This document shows, in pieces, positions 2,852-49,211 of a stretch of DNA of 64,000 bases (its first letter is position 1; the number at the start of each line of letters is the position of its first letter). The stretch comes from Sulfolobales archaeon (GTDB lineage Archaea; Thermoproteota; Thermoprotei_A; Sulfolobales; AG1). The stretch spans positions 1,213 to 65,212 of the forward strand of contig JBMFIR010000004.1 of the NCBI GenBank assembly GCA_049976205.1, given 5' to 3'. The position numbers and the translations under genes are program-made. The notes beneath the pieces are model-generated. The model did no database searches, had not been told where the DNA came from, and saw only the letters and a list, made by a program, of their open reading frames with translations.

Positions 2852-4198
2852 TTAAGATATTGTTTCTTTCGTGTGATTAAAGACACTATATAAAGTGACA
2901 CCTAGTAGAGTGAATAATATTATGAATATTATTGATACAATATCTAACTGGATTAATTGAATCACAATGAACAAGATCCCTATGAAGCCGCTGAGTAGTC
3001 CCAGAATCCTGTGCTTCTTCAAGATACCTATCTTGTAGAGAGAGAAACCAGCGAAGATATTAGTTATTGCTGTTCCGAAAGATGCTGTGTTAACAAACCA
3101 TATAAGTATCTCTCTCCCGAGAAAAATAAATGGTATAGCTAGAGAAAATGTGAATAATAGAGCTCTACTAGGAGTGTTGTACTTAGGATGTATGTGAGAA
3201 AAAAACTCTGAGACAACTTTTCTCCCCATCGCGAATAATAGTCTTGAGGATGCGATCATGTATCCATTAACACCAGATAATACGCCCATGAGCACACCTA
3301 AGAATATTATTGCTTTACCTAATCTCCCAAGTACTTTCTCAGCCACTGAGGCTGTGACCAGCCACATACCCGCGAACCTAATCCAGGGCTCAGTAGCTGC
3401 TGTAGCTAGTGGTATTAGAACATAGAATGAAGCCCCAATCACTAAAGTAACCACGATAATAAGAGTTATTTTTCTCGGATCCTCTGATGTTTCATCAATA
3501 ACTTGAGCCACGCTACTAAAACCTGTGTAGGCCCAAGGAGCAATTGCTAGCCACATTAAAACACCATATAAGCCGTTTTTAATAGACCATGGCGAGGGAG
3601 TTAGTGTATTCATGATGTTTCCTCTCAAGAAGCACGTGATTACATAGATATATCCTGTTGCCACAAGAGTCAATGTCATTATTCTCTGAGACATGGCTGA
3701 GAATTTTATACCGAAATAATTTAGTATAAAGAATAAAGTAAGGATCGAGACCGTAGATAATACGTAGCCTATATACACATCATAGTTCTTCATAGTGTAT
3801 AAATAACCCCACTTGATAAGGTCAGGAGCTATTAACTGAAGCCATACGGAGAATGCTGTGGAATTCAACACCATTATTGAGAAATAAACTGTGTAAAGCC
3901 ACCAGCCATTTACAAAACCTAATAAATAACCAAAGCTATTATAAGTCCACGTAAAGACTCCGCCAGGATCTGGTTGCAGACGAATAAGTATCGAGTACGA
4001 TATAGCTGTGGGCAGGATCATGAGCATGCCTACGAAAGCAGCTACAACAATACCCCAGGGACCACTCATATCGAGCCATACACCAACAAGTGTAAATACT
4101 CCCCAGCCAATCACTGTTCCAAAAGTTAAAGCAAATAAATCTATTAATCTCAGCTCACTTCTTAACTTAGCCAATGACCAGGCCCCTCTTTCAAACAT
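2852..4198 (-). CDS. amino acid/polyamine (APC superfamily) permease
   Basis: 448 aa with ~12 hydrophobic segments and typical APC length and layout. Confidence 0.65.
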   Translation of the reverse strand: MFERGAWSLAKLRSELRLIDLFALTFGTVIGWGVFTLVGVWLDMSGPWGIVVAAFVGMLMILPTAISYSILIRLQPDPGGVFTWTYNSFGYLLGFVNGWWLYTVYFSIMVLNSTAFSVWLQLIAPDLIKWGYLYTMKNYDVYIGYVLSTVSILTLFFILNYFGIKFSAMSQRIMTLTLVATGYIYVITCFLRGNIMNTLTPSPWSIKNGLYGVLMWLAIAPWAYTGFSSVAQVIDETSEDPRKITLIIVVTLVIGASFYVLIPLATAATEPWIRFAGMWLVTASVAEKVLGRLGKAIIFLGVLMGVLSGVNGYMIASSRLLFAMGRKVVSEFFSHIHPKYNTPSRALLFTFSLAIPFIFLGREILIWFVNTASFGTAITNIFAGFSLYKIGILKKHRILGLLSGFIGILFIVIQLIQLDIVSIIFIILFTLLGVTLYSVFNHTKETIS

Positions 4199-4398
4199 CT
4201 AGAAAACAACTAATAATACTAATTTGAAAAAGTAAATAATTACGTAAATCTACAATAATTAATTCCCCAGATCATTTTATTCAGGAATTATTGAATCTCT
4301 TCACCAGATCGAGATTATTAAAAATTTATAAAGTTAGCACCTGAATTATCTCGTGAGTATTATATAGGTGAAGTCAACTGAGAAAATTAAGCGTAGCA

Positions 4399-5625
4399 GT
4401 GCTAACAGGTCCTCTCGATGCTCCCACAGGCGGATTATATCGCGCTCACAAATCTCTAGAAGAATACAAGAAATATTTTGATGTATCACCCATTTTCTTA
4501 ATTGATGATAAGTCAAAATGCTCTGAGAAGTTAACTAATGATATTTTCATGATCTGTAGAAAGAGACTCGGTGAGCTCTTAACCTCAGCAAGATTAGATG
4601 CGTTACATATCTATTTTCCTAATCTATTACTCGAGAAATTACTATATAGATTGCCTGTGTTGAGTAAAAATATTGACGTCTTGATACAGTTTCACGAAGT
4701 CGCTGAATTAATTAAGTTAGGTGTATTGCTTAAGAATAGACTAGGTTCAAAGGCGATAGCGGTTTTACATAACCCACCGTTTATCGCTGATAAATTAAGG
4801 AGAGAGAATATTTGGAGAGCATATAAGTTATGGTATAGTGAGCTATATAGCGATGATAAATTCAAAAAATTCATGGGTATAATTCGGAGAAAAATTGAGT
4901 TAGCGACATATGAGAGCAGGACATATAGAAAATTGCTTGATGAATATGATCTTTTGATAGCTATTAGTAGAGCTACTGTTTACGAGATGGGTAATGAATT
5001 AATTAACAAAATCTATGTTCTAGATCCAGGAGTGGCTCTCGATGATGAGGATCTGAGGTTGCTTTCAAATGTTAAGAGCACTATCCGTAATAAAGAGAAT
5101 TATATAGTGTTTGGAGGTCGTATCGATGCTTTAAAAGGTTTTATTGAGGCTATACATGTTTTTAAGAAGATCCTTAGGATTTATAGTGATCTAAAGCTTG
5201 TGGCCACAGGTTATGTTTCTCCATCACTTAAGGAGAGTATACTAAGGTACTTAAGAAAACATGATGTAGAAGAGAAGATCGTGTTAATGGGCTCAGTTTC
5301 TCGTAGGGAGCGTTTCGAGGTTGTTGGAAAAGCTAGATTAATGCTTTATCCTAGTCATGCTGATGCTTATTCATATAGTGTTCTAGAATCTTTACTTCTA
5401 GGTACTCCTGTGGTTGCTTATGACATACCTGCACTTAAACTAAATTACGAGGGTTCCTCAGGTTTAAAACTCGTTAAGGAGGGAGATATCGAGGCTTTGG
5501 CTAGTGAAGCTTTGAATATGCTTAAAGATAATAAATACGATACTTCGCCTCCTAAGAAGCTTAGGAGTTGGAGAGATATTATTGATGAAGAGATCTCTGT
5601 TATAAAAAGACTCGCGGAAAAATAA
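4399..5625 (+). CDS. glycosyltransferase, GT4/GT1-type (GT-B fold)
   Basis: C-terminal YPSHADAYSYSVLESLLLGTPVVAYD matches the E-x7-E region of group 1 glycosyltransferases. Confidence 0.75.
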   Translation: MLTGPLDAPTGGLYRAHKSLEEYKKYFDVSPIFLIDDKSKCSEKLTNDIFMICRKRLGELLTSARLDALHIYFPNLLLEKLLYRLPVLSKNIDVLIQFHEVAELIKLGVLLKNRLGSKAIAVLHNPPFIADKLRRENIWRAYKLWYSELYSDDKFKKFMGIIRRKIELATYESRTYRKLLDEYDLLIAISRATVYEMGNELINKIYVLDPGVALDDEDLRLLSNVKSTIRNKENYIVFGGRIDALKGFIEAIHVFKKILRIYSDLKLVATGYVSPSLKESILRYLRKHDVEEKIVLMGSVSRRERFEVVGKARLMLYPSHADAYSYSVLESLLLGTPVVAYDIPALKLNYEGSSGLKLVKEGDIEALASEALNMLKDNKYDTSPPKKLRSWRDIIDEEISVIKRLAEK

Positions 5626-5726: not shown

Positions 5727-6344
5727 ATGAGGATCGTGAGTTTATCGCCTGCGATCTCGGAAACTCTTTCTCTACTCGGTGCCGAGGACGAGATAGTGGG
5801 TGTCACTCCCTGGTGCAGAATGTATTTGAGGAAGAAAGATATTGCTGTGGCGGGAACATATATTCATGTTAACATGGAGATCCTTAGGAAGTTGAGACCG
5901 GATATAATTTTTCTTCAATCACATGTTCAAGATAAACTCTACGACGCTTTAAGAAGCGAGGGTTTCAGAACATATTTAATTCCGCTACCAACAAATCTTC
6001 TTGATATTGTGTCTAATGTGGAGTTTATCTCTTCTCTAGTTGATAGGTACTGGGAAGGGAAGGATCTCGCTGATAAACTCCTAGATCAAGTCATTATGCA
6101 CAGGAGAGTAGCTAAGGAGAGGCCCAGGGTCTATGTCGAGTATCTATGGCCAGACAAAACATTTTCTACAGCGGGTAACCTAACGTACATAGATGATGCA
6201 CTACGACTCGTGGGTGCAGTAAATATATTTGTGGATAAGAAATTAAAGTTCTTCACACCCTCCGATGAAGAGATCTTGTCGAGAGACCCGGAGATAATAC
6301 TGGTTAATATAGAGCGTTTCCCCACTCACGGTACTTATAATTAG
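5727..6344 (+). pseudogene. periplasmic binding protein (BtuF/FhuD-like, PBP type 8), 5' fragment interrupted by an IS element
   Basis: MRIVSLSPAISETLSLLGAEDEIVGVT...PDIIFL...DPEIILVN is typical of the Fe-siderophore/cobalamin binding protein family. Homology ends near nt 6308. The last 12 codons read into the IS. Confidence 0.6.
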
Positions 6345-7695
6345 TTTCAATTATTTTTAATTCCGTGAGTGGGATTGATCCTTGGTGTGGGTTCACTAGC
6401 TTCACCCACACCTCATGGGATCCCGTCGAGCCCAACGCCATGGGGCTCCCATCTGTGGAGAGGTACCTCAACCCAATGTTTATGGCTCCAATAATGTCTC
6501 TGTCTAGGGTCAGCCCATTGACCAGTCTGGCTAATCTTAGGGTGATCTTGATTACTCTCACTCTCTTACCCCCTCTCATCGCAACGCGAATCACAGAGGG
6601 GACGTAGTTTTTAATGGGTTTTCCACTAAAAGGATCTTTTGAGGAAGAGTATGCCTCCAACACCTCAACAACATATATGGGCTTGTTACTTAATATTTCT
6701 ACTAGCTTTGAGACACTCCACTGGTGGATCCTGTGCCTGAGCTTGTTGCTTCTCACCTTGCTAGCAAGCCTTCCTTTACCCTTGCGGACGTTCCCAACAA
6801 CCACAACAGCGTTGTTTATATAAGCCAACTCCTCAATAAGCCTAGCAGTCTTGTAGATAATGTCCATCTTCCTCTCCCTCTCCCTCAGCTTCCTAAGTGC
6901 TTTCTTCACACCTCTGCCCTTAGTGGACTTACCCCCCGCGACCCTCTTTCTCCTCTCGGAGTATGCAATAACCACCTTACCCAGGCCGGTCTCGACCCTG
7001 TAGATATCACCAAGTCTTCCGCCTCTGAACACCGCCAGCGTGACATTGTTCTCATTAATATCAACAGCAACAATGTTGCTAGGGTCGTAAGAGACCTCAA
7101 AATCTCTCCTAAACGTTAAGTACACGAGAATCCTCTTACCAATGGGCTTAAGCTTAAGTTCACTAGCCAATCTCCATCCACCATAGAGATACTTCACCAA
7201 CAGCCTACTATATCTCAGGCTAAGCCTGATCCAGCCCCTATGAGTCCTAAGCTCCACATCGCCATTAGCCAATCTCCACTCCTGCGAATCAGAGTAGGTC
7301 ACCGTGATGCTCTTCACTACTGGCATATCGCTCACGGCAAGCCCCTTCTTCTTTAGCCTCAGGAAACTCCTAGCTCTTCTAACAGCATCTCTGTAACAAC
7401 CCTTGATCACCCTAGTCGGCAACCAAGGAAACTTCTCCCTGAACCTATTGTAGAATACTTTATGTAAGGTGGCTTGCGATGCATTATGCTTGACTGCGTA
7501 ATCAACCATCTCCTGGAGCATGTCTCTATAAGCTTCAAAGATTTCTCTAAGGGCTTGCCTACCAACCTTATTACTCCACCCCTCTAAGACTACTGTTCTT
7601 TTAAGGGTCTTTGACAGCTTGCTCAACTGCATCCACCACCCTCCTATACTTATGGCTACGCTTACTGTAAATTTTGCTGGCAAAGCTAGTGACAA
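6304..7695 (-). CDS. tnpB: TnpB/OrfB-like RNA-guided-nuclease family protein (probable start at Met22, nt 7632)
   Basis: NIVAVDINENNVTL is RuvC-I-like. YVVEVLEAYSSS corresponds to the VdPayTSq block. LDRDIIGAINIG is RuvC-III (DxNAAxNI). It overlaps tnpA, as is typical of IS607. Confidence 0.8.
   Translation of the reverse strand: MSLALPAKFTVSVAISIGGWWMQLSKLSKTLKRTVVLEGWSNKVGRQALREIFEAYRDMLQEMVDYAVKHNASQATLHKVFYNRFREKFPWLPTRVIKGCYRDAVRRARSFLRLKKKGLAVSDMPVVKSITVTYSDSQEWRLANGDVELRTHRGWIRLSLRYSRLLVKYLYGGWRLASELKLKPIGKRILVYLTFRRDFEVSYDPSNIVAVDINENNVTLAVFRGGRLGDIYRVETGLGKVVIAYSERRKRVAGGKSTKGRGVKKALRKLRERERKMDIIYKTARLIEELAYINNAVVVVGNVRKGKGRLASKVRSNKLRHRIHQWSVSKLVEILSNKPIYVVEVLEAYSSSKDPFSGKPIKNYVPSVIRVAMRGGKRVRVIKITLRLARLVNGLTLDRDIIGAINIGLRYLSTDGSPMALGSTGSHEVWVKLVNPHQGSIPLTELKIIETNYKYREWGNALY
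6309..6412 (-). ncRNA. candidate omega/right-end RNA scaffold of the TnpB element
   Basis: Two perfect hairpins lie in the 3' end of tnpB at the IS end: a 9-bp stem 6384-6392/6404-6412 with an 11-nt loop, and an 11-bp stem 6321-6331/6363-6373 with a 31-nt AT loop. Confidence 0.3.
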
Positions 7696-8589: not shown

Positions 8590-9252
8590 GTGATGAGAGT
8601 ATTATCTGAAGACGAGAAACAGCGTTTGATAAAGACTCTTGAGGAGGATAGAGAATTCAGATATGCTTTAATGGGCTTATTAGGATTTAAAGAAATCCTG
8701 GATCGCATCACTCGAATCGAAGAAAGACAGCAGAAACTAGAGGAGAGACAGCAGGAATTAGAGGAGAGAATGATCAAACTAGAAGAAAGAATGATCAAGC
8801 TAGAGGAGAGAATGATTGAGCTTGCGGAGAGACAACAAAAGCTGGAGGAGAGAATGATTCAGGTTGAGACTGAGTTGATCTATGTCAGGAGATTATCAGA
8901 ATTAAATAGGAGAGATATATCTGCTATTTCCGAGGCTCTTTATAGTAGATGGGTTTTAGAGACAGTTGAAAAAGAGATCTCAGCTAAGGGAGAGAGAATA
9001 GTTGGTGTCTACAGAAATTATGTTGTAAAAGACAAGGAAATAGATCTTGTGATAGAGACAGATCAAAGCATTTATTGTGTGGAGGTTAAGATTCAGCCGA
9101 ATCATCATGACATAGATGATCTCTTAAATAAAGCTGAGACCCTGAGAAACATATTTAAGAAACAGATCATACCTATTTTAGTGGGTTCTTGGATAGGTAG
9201 AGAAACAATTGAGTATGCGAAAAACAAACATGTTAGAGTAATTACATATTAG
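8590..9252 (+). CDS. coiled-coil protein with C-terminal PD-(D/E)xK nuclease-like domain (DUF3782-like)
   Basis: Seven LEERQQK/LEERMIK heptads are followed by KEIDLVIETD...YCVEVKIQ, a D...E-x-K motif. Confidence 0.5.
   Translation: MMRVLSEDEKQRLIKTLEEDREFRYALMGLLGFKEILDRITRIEERQQKLEERQQELEERMIKLEERMIKLEERMIELAERQQKLEERMIQVETELIYVRRLSELNRRDISAISEALYSRWVLETVEKEISAKGERIVGVYRNYVVKDKEIDLVIETDQSIYCVEVKIQPNHHDIDDLLNKAETLRNIFKKQIIPILVGSWIGRETIEYAKNKHVRVITY
8716..8865 (+). repeat. 7 x 21-bp in-frame tandem repeat (heptad coiled coil)
   Basis: gaagaaagacagcagaaacta / gaggagagacagcaggaatta / gaggagagaatgatcaaacta and further units. The protein reads IEERQQK LEERQQE LEERMIK LEERMIK LEERMIE LAERQQK LEERMIQ. 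Confidence 0.9.
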
Positions 9253-12737: not shown

Positions 12738-12816
12738 GGGGCCCGTAGCTCAGCCAGGATAGAGCGCTGGCCTCCTAAGCCAGTGGTCCGGGGTTCAAAT
12801 CCCCGCGGGCCCGCCA
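12738..12816 (+). tRNA. tRNA-Arg (anticodon CCT), CCA encoded
   Basis: Cloverleaf: acceptor GGGCCCG/CGGGCCC, D arm GCTC-AGCCAGGATA-GAGC, anticodon stem CTGGC/GCCAG with loop CTCCTAA, T arm CGGGG-TTCAAAT-CCCCG, discriminator G, then CCA. Confidence 0.9.
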
Positions 12817-12906: not shown

Positions 12907-13039
12907 GGGCCCGTAGCTCAGCTAGGTAGAGCGGCGGGCTCCAGTCCACGCGGGTCTATAGACCCCTTGTGGGGGATGATAGAGGACTGGAGCAGGAGAG
13001 ACCCGCAGGTCGGGGGTTCAAATCCCTCCGGGCCCACCA
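12907..13039 (+). tRNA. tRNA-Trp (anticodon CCA) with 56-nt intron (12945-13000) at canonical 37/38 position, CCA encoded
   Basis: Acceptor GGGCCCG/CGGGCCC, D arm GCTC-AGCTAGGTA-GAGC, anticodon stem GCGGG(12934-38)/CCCGC(13002-06), spliced loop CTCCAGA, T arm GGGGG-TTCAAAT-CCCTC. The central BHB helix CTCC(12939-42)/GGAG(12995-98) is flanked by 3-nt bulges. Confidence 0.85.
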
Positions 13040-32585: not shown

Positions 32586-32725
32586 AAACTTGTTCTTATC
32601 ACTTACACTATAAAAGATCTTTACGCTTACCCTTGAGCTCTAAAGGATCTTTAAATACATGAAATAAAGATCTTAATACAGATCCTCATAATGATTCAGA
32701 TCTGTTTTTTAATGAACTGACCTTC

Positions 32726-32991
32726 TTCTCAATTCTATATCAGATCAACACAGGTTCTCCTAGGTTCAACCCTGAACCGGTTCTCCGGCCCATCCCCCCT
32801 CAGGGGTTAGGGTTATGAACTTTATCACCGCCTCGGAGACATAAATTCAACCTTGTGTATCCAGCATCTCTATTGAGTATCACCAGAGATTAGTCCCCAA
32901 GGCACACATGCATTATAATCATCATAGATACTAGAGGATACAGAACTTATAGATCCATCATCACCCCGAAAGACGAGATTTTAGGTTGTAA
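32726..32991 (+). repeat. structured interspersed repeat, copy A (~266 bp)
   Basis: It is collinear with 48498-48778 and 34640-34882. It starts TTCTCAATTCTATA and ends ...GACGAGATTTTAGGTTGTAA. It shares hairpins H2 (32789-32812) and H3 (32831-40/32893-902). Confidence 0.7.
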
Positions 32992-33080
32992 TCATTCGAG
33001 AAGTAAGTTTTTGCTCGAAGACGCACAATATCTGAACGTAGTGACTAAAGCTTCTGTGAATTATGGATCTTATTGAATAG

Positions 33081-33155
33081 CGGGCCCGCCGGGATTTGAA
33101 CCCGGGACCTCCGGCTCCGCAGGCCGACGCCCTATCCTGGCTAGGCGACGGGCCC
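33081..33155 (-). tRNA. tRNA-Arg (anticodon GCG), no encoded CCA
   Basis: Minus strand: GGGCCCG TC GCCT-AGCCAGGATA-GGGC G TCGGC CTGCGGA GCCGA GGTC CCGGG-TTCAAAT-CCCGG CGGGCCC G. Confidence 0.9.
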
Positions 33156-33249
33156 CATGATTATTTTTGAGTGATTAAGTTAATATCTCTCATAGACTAC
33201 ATATGTATTATTTTTATGAGAAGTGAATATTTTAATTGGCTGAGTAGTA

Positions 33250-33699
33250 ATGATTACTCTGAGGCTTCCTCCCAGGATCAAGGTCTTAGAGGCTTTGGGC
33301 GCTGTTGCTGATGGTAGAGTGAAGATTATTGATGATCACTATGCTGAGGTGGTGAGTTCTGAGGGTGATCGTGTTTATAAGGTCTATACAGATCTTTCTA
33401 GAGGAGTTGTTGATAGCTCTGATAATGGGACTGTTTATCGAGGCTATATTGGGTATCCTATATTGTCTGTTTTAATGATCAGAGGTTTTCTACCTTTTAA
33501 TAAGAGAATTGCTGAGGCTCTGAGAGGTATTAGGTGGAGAGAGTTGAATGAGAGATATAAGAGCTACTCAATCGTTGAGAATATTGTTGTTTCAGAAGCA
33601 TCTAGGAAAGGTGTTTCGAGGCAAGAGATCGAGAATTTTATTAATGAAGTAATGAAGATCCTTGGTAGCAAGAGATTTTATAGAGAGAAAGTGATTTAG
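33250..33699 (+). CDS. conserved hypothetical protein, translationally abutting trmJ-like gene
   Basis: 149-aa ORF. Its stop TAG is immediately followed by the ATG of the next gene. Confidence 0.5.
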   Translation: MITLRLPPRIKVLEALGAVADGRVKIIDDHYAEVVSSEGDRVYKVYTDLSRGVVDSSDNGTVYRGYIGYPILSVLMIRGFLPFNKRIAEALRGIRWRELNERYKSYSIVENIVVSEASRKGVSRQEIENFINEVMKILGSKRFYREKVI

Positions 33700-34449
33700 A
33701 TGATTAATAAGGACATAAGAATTGTTCTAGTAGGTGTCGAGGGATCCATTAACCTAGGTTTCGTAGCTAGATTATGTAAGAATTTTGGTGTAGAGAAACT
33801 CTACCTTGTTAAACCCTCCGCGTCAATAGATGATGAAGCCTATAGATACGCTATGAGAGGTCGAGAGATCCTTGATAAGATCAAGATACTTGAATCAATG
33901 GATCAGTTAGTGAATGAAGTAGATCTCGTGGCATGCACATCATCCGTAGTCCCAATTGATAGAGATCCTCTCAGGCAACCCATGGAACTAAGTGAATTTA
34001 TTGAACTAATAGATAAATACAGATCCATAGCAGTGGTTTTTGGGAGAGAAAGCACAGGATTAACAAGAGAAGAACTAAGAAAATGTCATCTCTATATACA
34101 CATAGAGGCTGATCAAAATTACCCAGTACTTAATCTCTCACACGCAGTAGCAATAACACTCTATGAAATACACAAGAAATACAGTACCCAGAAAAGTCTC
34201 GAGACACTCGAGAAAATCGATAAAGAAGACCTCAGGATCTTGGAGACAGTAGTAAGTAAGATAGTTGAGTTAGTGTATCCACCTAATCGAAGAGAAGATA
34301 TTAGAGCATCTCTGATGAGAATATTGTATAAGGCGAATATGACAAAAACAGAGATCAGACTATTAGCTAGAACCCTAAGCAAATTAATCTCATTAGCACA
34401 AAAAAGATCAAAAGCCGATCTTTTAACATACGAAGAAGACATCAATTGA
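33700..34449 (+). CDS. trmJ: SPOUT (SpoU/TrmH group, TrmJ-like) tRNA/rRNA 2'-O-methyltransferase
   Basis: IRIVLVGVEGSINLGFVARL, VVFGRESTGLT, and LNLSHAVAITLYE are the SPOUT motifs. Confidence 0.75.
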   Translation: MINKDIRIVLVGVEGSINLGFVARLCKNFGVEKLYLVKPSASIDDEAYRYAMRGREILDKIKILESMDQLVNEVDLVACTSSVVPIDRDPLRQPMELSEFIELIDKYRSIAVVFGRESTGLTREELRKCHLYIHIEADQNYPVLNLSHAVAITLYEIHKKYSTQKSLETLEKIDKEDLRILETVVSKIVELVYPPNRREDIRASLMRILYKANMTKTEIRLLARTLSKLISLAQKRSKADLLTYEEDIN

Positions 34450-34639
34450 TTCTTTCTATCTAACTTCACGAGCTTAAATAATCGCTACTTAATACTGACA
34501 CATAACCCATTATAATACTCATAACTTATTTTAGAAAGATACGAGACAATCAAGGATCTAAATATAATATTGATAAATACATCTCTTAAAGCCTACCAGA
34601 CTTTAATACACCTCGAGAGAATCAGCAAGAATCTATCAG

Positions 34640-34882
34640 TTTTCAATTCTATAGAAGATCTTTTTGCCGGGGTCTAGGGCGCTACCCCTCCTAAAGAGAT
34701 TATTTCTATCCATAATCATCGGGTTAGGGGTAATGAGCGGGGATCCTCCCCCACCGGGTCATCGAGAAGCATATAGCCCCTGGAAACTGATCCCCAAACC
34801 CTCAAACTCTTAGATCTCATCATCGAGAAGCATTTATGCTCAAAGGCTTAAAAATCCTGCCCCGCCTTAAAAGACGAGGTTC
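34640..34882 (+). repeat. structured interspersed repeat, copy C (~243 bp)
   Basis: It starts TTTTCAATTCTATAGAAGATC and ends CCCCGCCTTAAAAGACGAGGTT. H2 is ACCCCT(34684-89)/AGGGGT(34726-31). H3 is GGGGATC(34739-45)/GATCCCC(34789-95). It has an internal duplicate, TCATCGAGAAGCAT. Confidence 0.65.
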
Positions 34883-34944
34883 GCCAAAAATCTTGCTAGT
34901 ATCATGAGATACTTGATTAATAGATCTTATGCGACACGTGATCA

Positions 34945-47661: not shown

Positions 47662-49211
47662 ATGAATAAATACACAGAGAAGGCAGTAGAAGTTTTCCTA
47701 GAGACAGGAACTAAGTTTCCCAGATCTATTATTTGGGCCATGGGTCTCCTAAAATACGCTGCGGCTAAAGTGAACACCGAGTTGGGTTTATTGGATAAGG
47801 ATATTGGCGAAGCCATAATGAAGGTCTCCAAAGAGCTTGCCGATGGATTATACGATGATTTAGTTATTGTAGATGTGTTTCAAACCGGTTCTGGGACAGG
47901 TCTAAATATGAATATTAATGAAATAATAGCTACCAAAGCTACACAGCTCCTCGGTAAAAATATTCATCCAAATGATCATGTTAACATAGGTCAGTCATCA
48001 AATGATGTTGTTCCAAGTGCTATTAGGATCGCTGCTGTCTACGAGGTGGAGAGTAAGCTTATTCCATCTCTCAAGAGATTCACTGATGATCTCAGGGATC
48101 TAGTAAATAGAACATCTAACGTGATCAAGCCAGGGAGAACACATCTAAGAGATGCTCTCCCAGCGACAATGGGTCAAGAATTCTCTGCTTATCTTGATGC
48201 TTTTGAACACGATCTTGTTCTTCTCACGAGAGCCGCTGAGTACGTCAGGGAATTACCCATAGGAGGAACCGCTGTCGGAACAGGTCTAAATACTCATCCT
48301 AGATTCGGTGAATTAGTTGTTGAGGAAATAAATAAGTTAACGAATCTAGGTTTTAGAGTAGCTAGCAACAGGTTTAGGGCGATGAGGACATTGAGTAACT
48401 TAGTTAATTTAAGTGGCGTTCTAAGGATCATGGCGCTAGATTTACTTAGACTATCTCAGGATATCAGATTAATATACTCAGGCCCAAACACAGGTTTCTT
48501 TCAATTCTATAGTAGATCGTTCTATGTTATTGCCTGGTTTAGCTCTGGGCCGGGTCTCCAGCCCATTACCCCTACCCCTCTCGGGGCTCGGGGTTATGGT
48601 TTTATCATTGCCTCGGGGGCGTAGATTTAGTCTTGTGTATCTAGCATTTCTATCGAGTATTGCTATAGATTGGCCCCCGAGACTCATATTCAAATCAATC
48701 ATCATCAGAGATATTAGAGGATACAGAGCTTATAAACATCATCCCCCGCCTTAAAAGGGCGAGGCTTTTCAGTTGTAAAACAAATCCAGTCACTGTAGAA
48801 GCCGCTATGCTGGCCTCGGCTCAGGTAATTGGGTTAGACACCTCTAATAGCTACGCTAATTTACTCGGTGTATTCGAGTTGAGTATAGCTATACCATTAG
48901 TTGGCTACAATATTGTTTCTCAGATAAAGCTATTGGATCAAGCCTTAGAGAAATTATCTGAATATGTTATTAGAAGAATTACTCCACTACGTGAGAGATT
49001 AATTGAATTAACTGAAAAGAGTCAGGCTCTGATAACTCTTGTGTCTCCTTTAATAGGCTACGACAAGGCAGCGGAATTATCTAAGATTCTTTTGAGAGGG
49101 GTGTCAATTAGACAAGCTCTCAGGGAGCTAGGTTTTAGTGAGGAGGATATTAATAGAATACTTGATCCAAGGAGATTAACTAGTCCAGGGATACCATCGA
49201 AAAATATTTAG
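47662..49211 (+). pseudogene. fumC: class II fumarate hydratase / aspartase-family lyase, interrupted by repeat copy B and lacking the SS-loop
   Basis: The N part has [36 protein letters not shown] and ends at ...[11 protein letters not shown] (~48497). The C part resumes at KTNPVTVEAAMLASAQVIG (~48777) and runs to the C-terminus. The ~18 aa carrying GSSxMPxK are absent. Confidence 0.75.
48498..48778 (+). repeat. structured interspersed repeat, copy B (~281 bp), inserted in fumarase gene
   Basis: It starts CTTTCAATTCTATAGTAGATC and ends CCCCGCCTTAAAAGGGCGAGGCTTTTCAGTTGTAA. H2 spans 48568-48594. H3 is CTCGGGGGC(48612-20)/GCCCCCGAG(48673-81). H4 is TCTAT(48649-53)/ATAGA(48665-69). Confidence 0.7.

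What the first reader, a model, noticed from the sequence alone, without database searches (positions are those of the whole stretch)
32726..32991. Interspersed ~245-280 bp repeat family with conserved GC-rich stems and compensatory base changes (copy A, next to tRNA-Arg)
Three same-strand copies are collinear: A 32726-32991, C 34640-34882, B 48498-48778. All begin T(T/C)(T/C)TCAATTCTATA-N2-AGATC. B and C end CCCCGCCTTAAAAG(G/A)CGAGG; A carries a shortened version (CACCCCGAAAGACGAGA). They have no terminal inverted repeats and no obvious target duplications. In this AT-rich genome they carry GC-rich helices that are kept while the sequence changes. H2 is a CCCC-loop-GGGG hairpin with an outer (A)CCC(C)/GGG(GT) extension across a 2/3-nt internal loop, and it occurs in all three. 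H3 is a long-range stem: CTCGGGGGC/GCCCCCGAG in B, CCTCGGAGAC/GTCCCCAAGG in A (8/10 paired) and GGGGATC/GATCCCC in C, so the apical pair G:C in B becomes A:T in A and C. H4 is TCTAT/ATAGA in B and TCTCT/AGAGA in A, where an A:T pair becomes C:G. Covariation like this argues for selection on a folded RNA or ssDNA rather than on sequence. Copy A lies ~90 bp from the 3' end of tRNA-Arg(GCG). Inference: the family is either a non-autonomous mobile element with structured ends (PATE/MITE-like) or a family of structured small RNAs. I cannot match it to a known family by eye.
Basis: partly seen in the sequence, partly recalled or inferred. Interest (0 to 1): 0.75.

Follow-up and report, generated by a model that had tools for sequence, protein, structure and literature searches.

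The report
Mini-transposons ending in a CRISPR repeat
The three repeats are small gene-less copies of a TnpB-type (IS200/IS605) jumping gene, one of which has broken the fumarase gene, and unusually the hairpin that normally marks the transposon's right end has been replaced by a copy of a CRISPR repeat.

Summary
The repeat family is real. A (32717-32991) and B (48498-48778) belong to one subfamily and C (34640-~34890) to a sister subfamily. All three read on the minus strand. They are non-autonomous derivatives of a TnpB-encoding IS200/IS605-family insertion sequence (PATE/MITE-like). Full-length relatives in Desulfurococcales MAGs share the same left end: TTAC or TGAC target, then AAC..., a GC-rich hairpin and a TATA box. 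They also share the same right-end tip, GGGAGGNGGTCA(T/G). Two empty-site comparisons show precise insertion 3' of TTAC/TGAC with no target duplication. B sits inside a class II fumarase gene, which has also lost about 50 nt encoding the catalytic SS loop. It lies in crRNA sense on the element's transcribed strand. It occupies exactly the place where canonical relatives carry the right-end hairpin, next to where a TnpB guide would begin. The GC-rich helices are conserved and the minus strand folds better, but covariation support is weak. I found no report of a CRISPR repeat inside an IS200/IS605 right end. Its role is untested: Cas6 site, RNA decoy, or binding site for a repeat-binding protein.

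The parts
32717..32991 (-). Copy A: degenerate fam1 non-autonomous IS200/IS605-derived element. It lies in the intergenic region 88 nt from tRNA-Arg(GCG).
   Evidence: nhmmer with the fam1 profile, E = 3e-62; alignments.
32726..32746 (-). Copy A solitary CRISPR repeat (plus strand TTCTCAATTCTATATCAGATC; crRNA sense on the minus strand). It is preceded at 32717-32725 by a shortened right-end tip (CTGACCTTC).
32961..32991 (-). Copy A left end: decayed hairpin (TCACCCCGAAAGACGAGA), LE terminus, and GTAA (= TTAC target on the minus strand) at 32988-32991. A TATA-like CTTATAGA lies at 32946-32953.
34640..34890 (-). Copy C: fam0-type non-autonomous element. Its left-end terminus is diverged, so the end coordinate is uncertain by about 10 nt.
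   Evidence: nhmmer with the fam0 profile, E = 2e-35, window 34886-34639; alignments.
34640..34660 (-). Copy C solitary CRISPR repeat (TTTTCAATTCTATAGAAGATC on the plus strand). No right-end tip follows it.
34848..34879 (-). Copy C TATA-like box (CTTAAAAA, 34848-34855) and left-end hairpin CCCCGCCTTAAAAGACGAGG (34860-34879).
48498..48774 (-). Copy B: fam1 non-autonomous element inserted in the fumarase gene. The right-end tip is missing.
   Evidence: nhmmer E = 2e-72; comparison with the empty site; an identical insertion in an independent assembly, L115.
48498..48521 (-). Copy B solitary CRISPR repeat (CTTTCAATTCTATAGTAGATCGTT on the plus strand; minus strand ...GATCTACTATAGAATTGAAAG, with the 8-nt handle ATTGAAAG at its 3' end).
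48568..48594 (-). Helix H2 of copy B: CCCC/GGGG outer stem and inner stem across an internal loop.
48610..48683 (-). Long-range helix H3 of copy B (GCCTCGGGGGC with GCCCCCGAGAC), enclosing the H4 hairpin that some family members have deleted.
48729..48774 (-). Copy B left end: TATA box (TTTATAAG on the minus strand, 48729-48736), hairpin GCCTCGCCC-TTTTAA-GGCGGGGG (48742-48764), and terminus AACTGAAAA (48765-48774).
48775..48778 (-). TTAC target motif (GTAA on the plus strand). It belongs to the fumarase codons GGT AAA and is not part of the element.
   Evidence: The intact ortholog L114 reads CCTGGTAAAACC.
47662..48497 (+). Fumarase (class II) N-terminal fragment, ending ...SGPNTGF.
48775..49211 (+). 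Fumarase C-terminal fragment, starting (G)KTNPVTVEA. Between the two fragments 17 codons (GEIDIRQEIAGSSIMPG, the catalytic SS loop) are missing.

Best explanation
A, B and C are non-autonomous copies, 250-290 bp long, of a TnpB-encoding insertion sequence of the IS200/IS605 family. They are PATE/MITE-like and lie on the minus strand.

Anatomy, read on the minus strand:
- the target tetranucleotide TTAC (A, B) or TGAC-type (C), which is host DNA;
- the left end AAC(T/A)G.., with a GC-rich imperfect hairpin GCCTCGCCC-N4-6-GGGCGGGG;
- a TATA box, which in the full-length IS precedes tnpB;
- a GC-rich folded body descended from the 3' part of the IS, the region that encodes the omegaRNA scaffold in characterised TnpB elements;
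- the right end.

In canonical relatives the right end reads ...GACCCCAGCATAGAAA-[CCCCGCCC-TTAA-GGGCGGGG]-AGGGGTCAT. In this lineage the bracketed hairpin has been replaced by a complete 24-nt CRISPR repeat in crRNA sense (GATGATCTACTATAGAATTGAAAG). In intact copies the tip GGGAGG(G/A)GGTCA(T/G) follows the repeat.

Shown here: homology of both ends with autonomous tnpB elements; precise insertion 3' of TTAC/TGAC without target duplication; dispersal of repeat-bearing copies to unrelated sites in several genomes; disruption of the fumarase gene by B, together with loss of about 50 nt of the gene and the 13-nt tip.

Inferred:
- The copies move as single-stranded DNA by 'peel and paste', using a Y1 TnpA supplied in trans.
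- The left-end promoter transcribes the body and the repeat.
- The repeat makes this transcript, or the DNA, a ligand of the host CRISPR machinery. My preferred reading (about 35%) is that Cas6 binds and cuts it 8 nt before the repeat's 3' end. That would give the RNA a defined 3' end and incidentally soak up Cas6 and Cas complexes, as an RNA anti-CRISPR does.
- Binding of a Cbp-type repeat-binding protein to the DNA is about equally possible.
For: CRISPR identity of the motif
- It forms arrays with a 61-68-nt period (16-87 motif matches in the large-array loci) in Desulfurococcales and Sulfolobales genomes, and about 100 solitary copies.
- Published Sulfolobus repeat: GCTAATCTACTATAGAATTGAAAG, with the 8-nt handle ATTGAAAG produced by Cas6 (PMC3737332).

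IS identity
- L103 and L024 carry TnpB. L024 has a 489-aa ORF matching PF07282 (1e-15) and PF01385 (2e-15).
- L024 is a complete element: left end TGAC|AACAGGGCAA + hairpin at 4010, tnpB at 4127-5596, and a canonical right-end hairpin + AGGGGTCAT.
- fam0 mini-elements keep up to 76% amino-acid identity to the TnpB C-terminus in their right-end-proximal ~100 nt.
- Alignment A4 shows the hairpin-to-repeat swap in both tnpB-carrying and gene-less copies, including C.
- The fam0 profile also detects B (2e-11) and A (5e-4).

Empty sites
- The intact fumarase ortholog L114 (85% amino-acid identity) reads ...ATGCCTG|GTAAAACC where B's left end abuts GTAAAAC.
- L014 (occupied) against L050 (empty)...CGTGAC|[AACGG...GAATTGAAAGGGGAGGGGTCAT]|CTAG..., a precise insertion with no duplication.

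Dispersal
- Repeat-bearing copies 88-92% identical sit in unrelated flanks.

Strand
- B folds at -87.0 kcal/mol (z = -3.6) on the minus strand, against -80.3 (z = -1.3) on the plus strand.
- The sense strand is more stable in 14/16 fam1 and 11/12 fam0 copies.
- H3 has G-U at one position in 13/17 copies, which would be A-C on the other strand.

Not an assembly artefact
- B is identical in an independent ENA contig.
Against: - The right-end hairpin, which the Y1 transposase of characterised IS200/IS605 elements needs, is absent from these copies. Trans-mobilisation by TnpA is therefore assumed, not shown.
- No tnpA or tnpB lies in the window, and I did not look for a Y1 TnpA in the related loci.
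- B's right junction is not a clean insertion: the tip and about 50 nt of the gene are missing.
- Covariation support for the folded body is weak. For helix H2 the plus strand pairs slightly better.
- The sense-strand stability difference could partly reflect G/U richness.
- The related copies were collected with an exact-match search for the repeat, so conservation of the repeat among them is biased by ascertainment.
- Nothing here shows transcription, Cas6 cleavage or protein binding.
- None of 531 spacers from arrays in the related loci matches the elements. The repeat-tip junction was not found in viral contigs. Neither result argues for an anti-CRISPR role.
Confidence: 0.85

Rival explanations
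1. The units are orphan CRISPR leaders with a single repeat (degenerate mini-arrays), like the multicopy leader-repeat units of Methanocaldococcus jannaschii. The ~250-nt body would be a leader.
For: The body lies on the leader side of the repeat, upstream in crRNA sense. Some other solitary repeats in the related genomes really are leader + one repeat: L044, L100, L016, L046_1081 and L083 match array leaders.
Against: Leaders of the real arrays are conserved among themselves but show no similarity to the bodies of A, B, C or of fam0/fam1. The bodies instead share both ends and the TnpB C-terminal coding remnant with IS elements. The units insert precisely 3' of TTAC/TGAC.
Confidence: 0.03
2. 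The family is a set of host small-RNA genes, structured and perhaps Cas6-processed, that spread by duplication. Mobility and IS ancestry would be irrelevant to its present role.
For: The minus strand folds significantly better than shuffles (z = -3.6). Helices are conserved. A TATA box lies upstream, and a Cas6-type site would define the 3' end.
Against: One copy destroys a conserved metabolic gene. Copies differ in presence between close relatives. Copies decay: A has a degenerate hairpin, and several copies have internal deletions. Covariation is weak. This is the pattern of selfish elements rather than conserved genes.
Confidence: 0.07
3. Copy B is an intron (bulge-helix-bulge or self-splicing) in the fumarase mRNA, and A and C are dispersed relatives of a mobile intron.
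For: B lies within a conserved gene in the same frame context, flanked by recognisable N- and C-terminal parts.
Against: Removing B cannot restore the protein. Seventeen codons, including the catalytic GSSIMPG loop, are absent. No mini-exon for them exists in B or anywhere in the window. There is no Rfam intron match. The element is antisense to the gene.
Confidence: 0.01
4. The CRISPR repeat has no function. It would be a neutral scar of a past recombination between an IS copy and a CRISPR array, hitch-hiking in a successful element lineage.
For: IS copies do sit in or beside arrays: in L103 a truncated tnpB is fused to the second repeat of an array. No spacer matches the elements and the junction was not found in viral contigs. 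Conservation of the repeat among the collected copies is biased by how they were found.
Against: The swap removes a hairpin normally needed for transposition, yet repeat-bearing copies outnumber canonical ones among the collected mini-elements and have dispersed. The repeat is complete (24 nt) and in crRNA sense. It also occurs in a second, different context inside TnpB elements in the same orientation (fam2). Different subfamilies carry repeat variants matching different array types: GATCATC, GATCACC, GATCTTC.
Confidence: 0.3

Closest known systems
IS200/IS605-family insertion sequences (IS1341-type, tnpB only) and their non-autonomous PATE/MITE derivatives; IS608 is the mechanistic reference
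   Same: There are no terminal inverted repeats and no target duplication. Insertion is 3' of a fixed tetranucleotide: TTAC, as for IS608 (from my own knowledge of IS608: target TTAC, right end TCAA). The left end has a subterminal GC-rich imperfect hairpin. The right end terminates in ..TCA(T/G). The ends are shared with elements encoding TnpB (PF01385/PF07282).
   Different: The right-end hairpin is replaced by a CRISPR repeat. No transposase gene was seen. The element family itself is undescribed, as far as the searched literature shows.
TnpB omegaRNA (reRNA)
   Same: The folded body descends from the 3' end of tnpB plus the right end. It is on the tnpB-sense strand and ends next to the flank, where a guide would start.
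   Different: The gene-less copies have no TnpB partner in cis. The terminal stem-loop next to the guide position is exchanged for an unstructured class 1 CRISPR repeat. Expression and TnpB binding are untested, and there is no Rfam model match.
Solitary repeat units (SRUs) of viruses and plasmids, some of which act as RNA anti-CRISPRs (Racr; PMC10651486)
   Same: Both are a single CRISPR repeat of the host type, outside any array, downstream of a promoter, and carried by a mobile element.
   Different: Here the repeat is carried by a chromosomal transposon in dozens of copies and is built into the transposon end. It is preceded by a ~200-nt structured RNA body. It was not found in viral contigs.
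Non-canonical binding sites of the CRISPR repeat-binding protein Cbp1 in ISC1229 (IS110 family) transposons of S. solfataricus (PMC10883916)
   Same: Both are CRISPR-repeat-like 21-bp motifs located in the 3' flank of a crenarchaeal transposon. This is a precedent for repeat mimicry by insertion sequences.
   Different: The IS family and transposition chemistry differ. There the motif only resembles the repeat consensus, whereas here a full repeat replaces a defined structural element. Binding is not tested here.
CRISPR leader + first repeat
   Same: The body has the same position and orientation relative to the repeat.
   Different: There is no sequence similarity to the leaders of real arrays in the related genomes. 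The units have transposon ends.

Membership tests
IS200/IS605-derived non-autonomous element (PATE/MITE-like) | No terminal inverted repeats | tested here: met
   The ends are AAC(T/A)G..hairpin on one side and ..repeat..GGTCA(T/G) on the other, and they are not complementary. The repeat finder found no inverted repeat bounding the copies.
IS200/IS605-derived non-autonomous element (PATE/MITE-like) | Insertion 3' of a conserved tetra- or pentanucleotide, without target-site duplication | tested here: met
   B compared with the intact ortholog L114 shows TTAC. L014 compared with the empty site in L050 shows TGAC and precise junctions on both sides.
IS200/IS605-derived non-autonomous element (PATE/MITE-like) | Subterminal imperfect hairpin at the left end | tested here: met
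   GCCTCGCCC-N4-6-GGGCGGGG is present in B, C and family members, with 87% of cells paired. It is decayed in A.
IS200/IS605-derived non-autonomous element (PATE/MITE-like) | Subterminal imperfect hairpin at the right end | tested here: not met
   It is replaced by a 24-nt CRISPR repeat in A, B, C and in fam0/fam1 copies. Canonical relatives (L024, L104, L029, L015) have the hairpin.
IS200/IS605-derived non-autonomous element (PATE/MITE-like) | Ends homologous to those of an autonomous element encoding TnpB and/or TnpA | tested here: met
   L024 is a complete tnpB element with the same left end and the same right-end tip. A TnpB C-terminal remnant is present in fam0 copies.
IS200/IS605-derived non-autonomous element (PATE/MITE-like) | Mobilisation by a Y1 (HUH) TnpA through single-stranded DNA | not testable with these tools
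   There is no tnpA in the window. The related loci were not screened for Y1 transposases.
TnpB omegaRNA | Encoded at the 3' end of tnpB / the right end, on the tnpB-sense strand, with the scaffold ending at the transposon boundary | tested here: met
   The position and strand follow from homology with L024, L093 and L103.
TnpB omegaRNA | Transcribed and bound by TnpB, guiding cleavage of TAM-flanked targets | not testable with these tools
   No expression or biochemical data are available. No tnpB lies in the window.
Solitary repeat unit / RNA anti-CRISPR (Racr) | A single repeat matching the CRISPR arrays of the host, not part of an array | tested here: inconclusive
   In the related MAGs the solitary repeats match arrays of the same genomes. 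The window holds no array, and its genome could not be scanned.
Solitary repeat unit / RNA anti-CRISPR (Racr) | Expressed as a small RNA that binds Cas proteins and lowers CRISPR immunity | not testable with these tools
   Only a predicted TATA box lies upstream.
CRISPR leader-repeat unit | Body homologous to the leaders of functional arrays | tested here: not met
   BLAST of 13 array leaders against all solitary-repeat bodies gave no leader match to the A, B, C or fam0/fam1 bodies.
Archaeal or self-splicing intron (for copy B) | Removal restores an intact reading frame | tested here: not met
   17 codons, including GSSIMPG, are absent, and there is no mini-exon.

The most novel reading that the evidence does not exclude
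A lineage of IS200/IS605 (TnpB/OMEGA) transposons has exchanged its own right-end hairpin for the host's class 1 CRISPR repeat, and it still spreads. That hairpin is the structure recognised by the transposase, and it sits next to the guide in the omegaRNA. The repeat is kept because it plugs the element into the host CRISPR machinery. Three routes are open: Cas6 cuts and binds the element RNA, giving 3'-end formation and/or an RNA anti-CRISPR decoy made in dozens of copies per genome; the cut releases a crRNA-like RNA whose 'spacer' is the transposon tip plus flanking DNA; or a Cbp-type repeat-binding protein is recruited to the transposon end. Any of these would be a direct functional bridge between OMEGA transposons and type I/III CRISPR-Cas.
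Probability: 0.35. Interest if true: 0.85.

Novelty: new variant of a known kind. Interest (0 to 1): 0.68.

Why it matters
TnpB/IS605 elements are the ancestors of Cas12, and their guide RNAs are thought to have seeded CRISPR arrays. Here the traffic seems to run the other way. A transposon end has taken up a repeat from an unrelated class 1 CRISPR system, exactly where its own guide-adjacent hairpin was, and the resulting elements have multiplied in several hyperthermophilic archaea.

If the repeat is functional, this would be the first transposon-borne solitary CRISPR repeat with a defined structural position. It would also pose a testable question about how Y1 transposition copes without a right-end hairpin.

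At the ordinary level, the finding explains three unannotated repeats. It shows the fumarase gene of this organism to be inactivated. It also gives the target motif (TTAC/TGAC) and the boundaries of an undescribed element family.

Tried and rejected
- **Intron or mini-exon idea for B.** Six-frame translation of A, B and C, and a search of the whole window for GSSxMPxK, found no exon.
- **Orphan CRISPR leader.** Leaders of real arrays do not match the bodies.
- **Rfam.** Only tRNAs reach the gathering score. At E <= 1 on B there is nothing except a chance SraC hit, and nothing on an array locus.
- **RNAalifold on the full alignment.** It gave a sparse structure, and energies did not separate the strands (-40.7 against -42.2). 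I defined the helices by hand instead.
- **Synteny test for A.** I asked whether A and a fam1 copy in L069, both ~90 nt from a tRNA-like sequence, are orthologous. No shared neighbours were found and ARAGORN finds no tRNA in L069.
- **Repeat-plus-tip junction in viral contigs.** No matches.
- **Spacer matches of 531 array spacers to the elements.** None.
- **Tandem Repeats Finder on an array locus.** It returned nothing, as expected for unique spacers.
- **L106 ORFs next to a solitary repeat.** No informative Pfam hit.
- **Literature.** Searches for a CRISPR repeat inside an IS200/IS605 end found no report. The nearest precedents are Cbp1 sites in ISC1229 and viral SRUs.
- **The window's own genome.** Its CRISPR arrays and total copy number are therefore unknown.

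Full report
**1. The observation**

The shared opening motif YTYTCAATTCTATANNAGATC occurs exactly three times in the window even when three mismatches are allowed, against 0.47 expected. B and C end in the hairpin CCCCGCC-TTAAAAG-GCGAGG, and A has a decayed version. G+C is 42-46% against 38% for the window. tRNA-Arg(GCG) lies at 33080-33155 on the minus strand, 88 nt from A. Only tRNAs reach Rfam gathering scores in the window.

**2. First surprise: B is inside a gene**

The ORF 47662..48624 is the N-terminal part of a class II fumarase. It matches E. coli FumC up to residue 306. The ORF after B matches from about residue 320. The catalytic SS loop (GSSxMPGK) lies between the two parts and is not encoded in B or anywhere else in the window. 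B therefore cannot be an intron.

**3. Second surprise: the opening motif is a CRISPR repeat**

A scan of one genome per species found the motif in long arrays with a 61-68-nt period, with 16 to 87 motif matches in the large-array loci. The arrays are in Desulfurococcales and Sulfolobales genomes: Desulfurococcaceae archaeon AG1 and the MAGs PSS.bin.19, PSS.bin.20, EvPrim.Bin15, JZ-1 and SMAG_U13334. The scan also found about 100 solitary copies in the same genomes.

The sequence is the known Sulfolobus repeat. Published papers give GCTAATCTACTATAGAATTGAAAG. They state that Cas6 leaves an 8-nt 5' handle, ATTGAAAG, and a 16-nt 3' handle (PMC3737332). The crRNA-sense strand is therefore the window's minus strand. 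The conserved array leaders lie on the corresponding side of the arrays.

**4. What follows the solitary repeats**

The DNA next to the solitary repeats clusters into families. A and B belong to fam1, with 15 or more members. C belongs to fam0, with 28 or more members (profile E-values 3e-62, 2e-72 and 2e-35). Alignments define discrete units whose flanks are unrelated.

Read on the minus strand, a unit consists of:
- TTAC or TGAC;
- AAC(T/A)G.. and the hairpin GCCTCGCCC-N4-6-GGGCGGGG;
- a TATA box (TTTATAAG or TTTTTAAG);
- a GC-rich body of about 200 nt;
- the repeat;
- in many copies, GGGAGG(G/A)GGTCA(T/G).

Leaders of real arrays are unrelated to these bodies, so the 'orphan leader' idea fails.

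**5. Identity**

In L103 the repeat lies at the very 3' end of a TnpB gene (PF01385), where YYRIES is encoded by TACTATAGAATTGAAAG. tblastn finds many tnpB copies in the related loci and none in the window. fam0 mini-elements retain up to 76% identity to the last ~35 residues of TnpB.

L024 holds a complete element:
- left end TGAC|AACAGGGCAA + hairpin;
- an intact 489-aa TnpB (PF07282 1e-15, PF01385 2e-15);
- right end ...GACCCCAGCATAGAAA-CCCCGCCCCTTAAGGGCGGGG-AGGGGTCAT.

Alignment A4 puts canonical and repeat-bearing right ends side by side. The hairpin is exactly replaced by AGATGATCTACTATAGAATTGAAAG, while the flanking GACCCCAGCATA.. and GGGAGGGGTCAT stay in place. This holds both in tnpB-carrying copies (L093, L103) and in gene-less copies (L014, L050, L076, and C).

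**6. Mobility**

An intact fumarase from a close relative (P0002, 85% identity, 441 aa, contig L114) reads ...ACAGGTTTTGGCGAA...ATAATGCCTG|GTAAAACCAATCC. In the window, B's left end abuts GTAAAAC. The TTAC on the minus strand is therefore target DNA (codons GGT AAA), and the element starts at AAC. On the other side the 13-nt tip and about 50 nt of the gene (GEIDIRQEIAGSSIMPG) are missing. The junction GGTTT|CTTTC allows a microhomology-mediated deletion, which is an inference. The same insertion is present in an independent ENA assembly (L115).

A second pair gives a clean case. L014 reads ...CGTGAC|AACGGAGC...GAATTGAAAGGGGAGGGGTCAT|CTAGC..., and a 92%-identical empty site in L050 reads ...CGTGAC|CTAGT.... 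There is no duplication, and insertion is 3' of a fixed tetranucleotide. This is the IS200/IS605 signature; IS608 uses TTAC and ends in TCAA (my own knowledge). Repeat-bearing copies 88-92% identical lie in unrelated flanks, so they dispersed after acquiring the repeat.

**7. Structure and strand**

On 17 fam1 sequences a hand-defined structure of 44 pairs is 82.7% paired. When the 3' partners are slid by 1-3 columns, pairing falls to 36-57%. The shuffle control is barely exceeded: 81.4 +/- 0.5 (6/500), covariation score 0.206 against 0.188 (7/500), and double changes 12 against 9.4 (90/500). The helices are conserved, but covariation is weak evidence.

The strand question is clearer:
- B folds at -87.0 kcal/mol (z = -3.57, 0/200 shuffles) on the minus strand, against -80.3 (z = -1.29) on the plus strand.
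- The tnpB-sense strand is more stable in 14/16 fam1 and 11/12 fam0 copies.
- One H3 position is G-U in 13/17 copies.

Helix H2 slightly favours the other strand, and G/U richness is a possible confounder.

**8. What the repeat does**

Nothing here tests this. The facts that bear on it are:
- The repeat is complete.
- It is in crRNA sense relative to the element's own promoter.
- It sits where the omegaRNA's last hairpin would be, next to the guide position.
- It also occurs, in the same orientation, in a second context, between an IS607-like HTH ORF and tnpB (fam2).
- Subfamilies carry variants matching different array types: GATCATC, GATCACC, GATCTTC.

Against an anti-CRISPR role, none of 531 array spacers matches the elements, and the junction is not in viral contigs.

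A guide-hijack role is unlikely, by inference. The would-be spacer starts with the transposon tip. For tipless copies, the empty site offers TAC or GAC where type I-A needs CCN (PAM as in PMC3737332).

The known precedents are viral and plasmid solitary repeats acting as RNA anti-CRISPRs (PMC10651486) and Cbp1 binding to repeat-like motifs in ISC1229 transposon flanks (PMC10883916). I found no report of a CRISPR repeat inside an IS200/IS605 end.

**9. Verdict**

It is a new, undescribed member set of the IS200/IS605 non-autonomous elements, with a structurally defined and apparently unreported variant: the right-end hairpin is replaced by a class 1 CRISPR repeat. Confidence in the identity is high. 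The role of the repeat is open.

Noticed in passing
window 12907-13036 (+): Rfam reports a tRNA match 130 nt long (57 bits), next to tRNA-Arg(CCT) at 12739-12816. ARAGORN does not report it. It is probably an intron-containing tRNA gene.
   Followed up: no
window 8716-8858: A direct repeat with a 21-nt period (5 copies, 74-79% identical) lies inside what looks like coding DNA. It is probably a heptad-like protein repeat.
   Followed up: no
L057 ~6120-6165; L018 ~7240-7290; L088 ~1215-1260; L110 ~4925-4970 and ~7095-7140: These are 45-nt mini-elements consisting only of TTAC|AACTGAAA, one hairpin GCCTCGCCC-TTCA-GGGCGGGG, and the right-end tip AGGAGGTCAG. They look like the smallest possible derivative of the same IS family and are frequent in the related MAGs.
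   Followed up: partly
L033 1160-1665 (minus strand); also L011 4716, L040, L066, L078, L092, L103 1415, L104: A second family of solitary repeats (fam2). The repeat is followed directly by a 12-nt partial repeat, TAGAATTGAAAG. It lies between a truncated HTH_17/MerR-type ORF (IS607-like TnpA N-terminus) and a tnpB, in the same orientation as the genes.
   Followed up: partly
L103 1-135: A CRISPR leader, first repeat, one 32-nt spacer and 19 nt of a second repeat are fused directly to a 5'-truncated tnpB. This is an IS copy recombined with or inserted into an array.
   Followed up: partly
window 48700-48712 (B), 32915-32925 (A), 34810-34822 (C); family-wide: A conserved C-box-like motif (G/A)TGATGA lies ~65-75 nt from the left end on the minus strand, in both subfamilies. 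It may be a kink-turn or L7Ae site.
   Followed up: no
window 32991-33080 and L069 ~655-750: Copy A and a fam1 copy in PSS.bin.20 both lie about 90 nt from a GC-rich tRNA-type 3' end. I found no shared neighbouring genes, and ARAGORN finds no tRNA in L069, so orthology is unproven.
   Followed up: partly
L026 1587, L037 3295, L059 7173, L080 1597, L108 4969: Solitary repeats in Sulfolobales MAGs and in strain AG1 are followed by a different conserved GC-rich body (GATCGACCCTGCGGGTTTATG...). There is no tnpB hit nearby, and their nature is unexplained.
   Followed up: no
L001 (Logan SRR6311223 contig, = window ~33223-34579): An independent short-read contig of the same organism ends about 60 nt before copy C. 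This is consistent with assemblies breaking at this repeat family.
   Followed up: no
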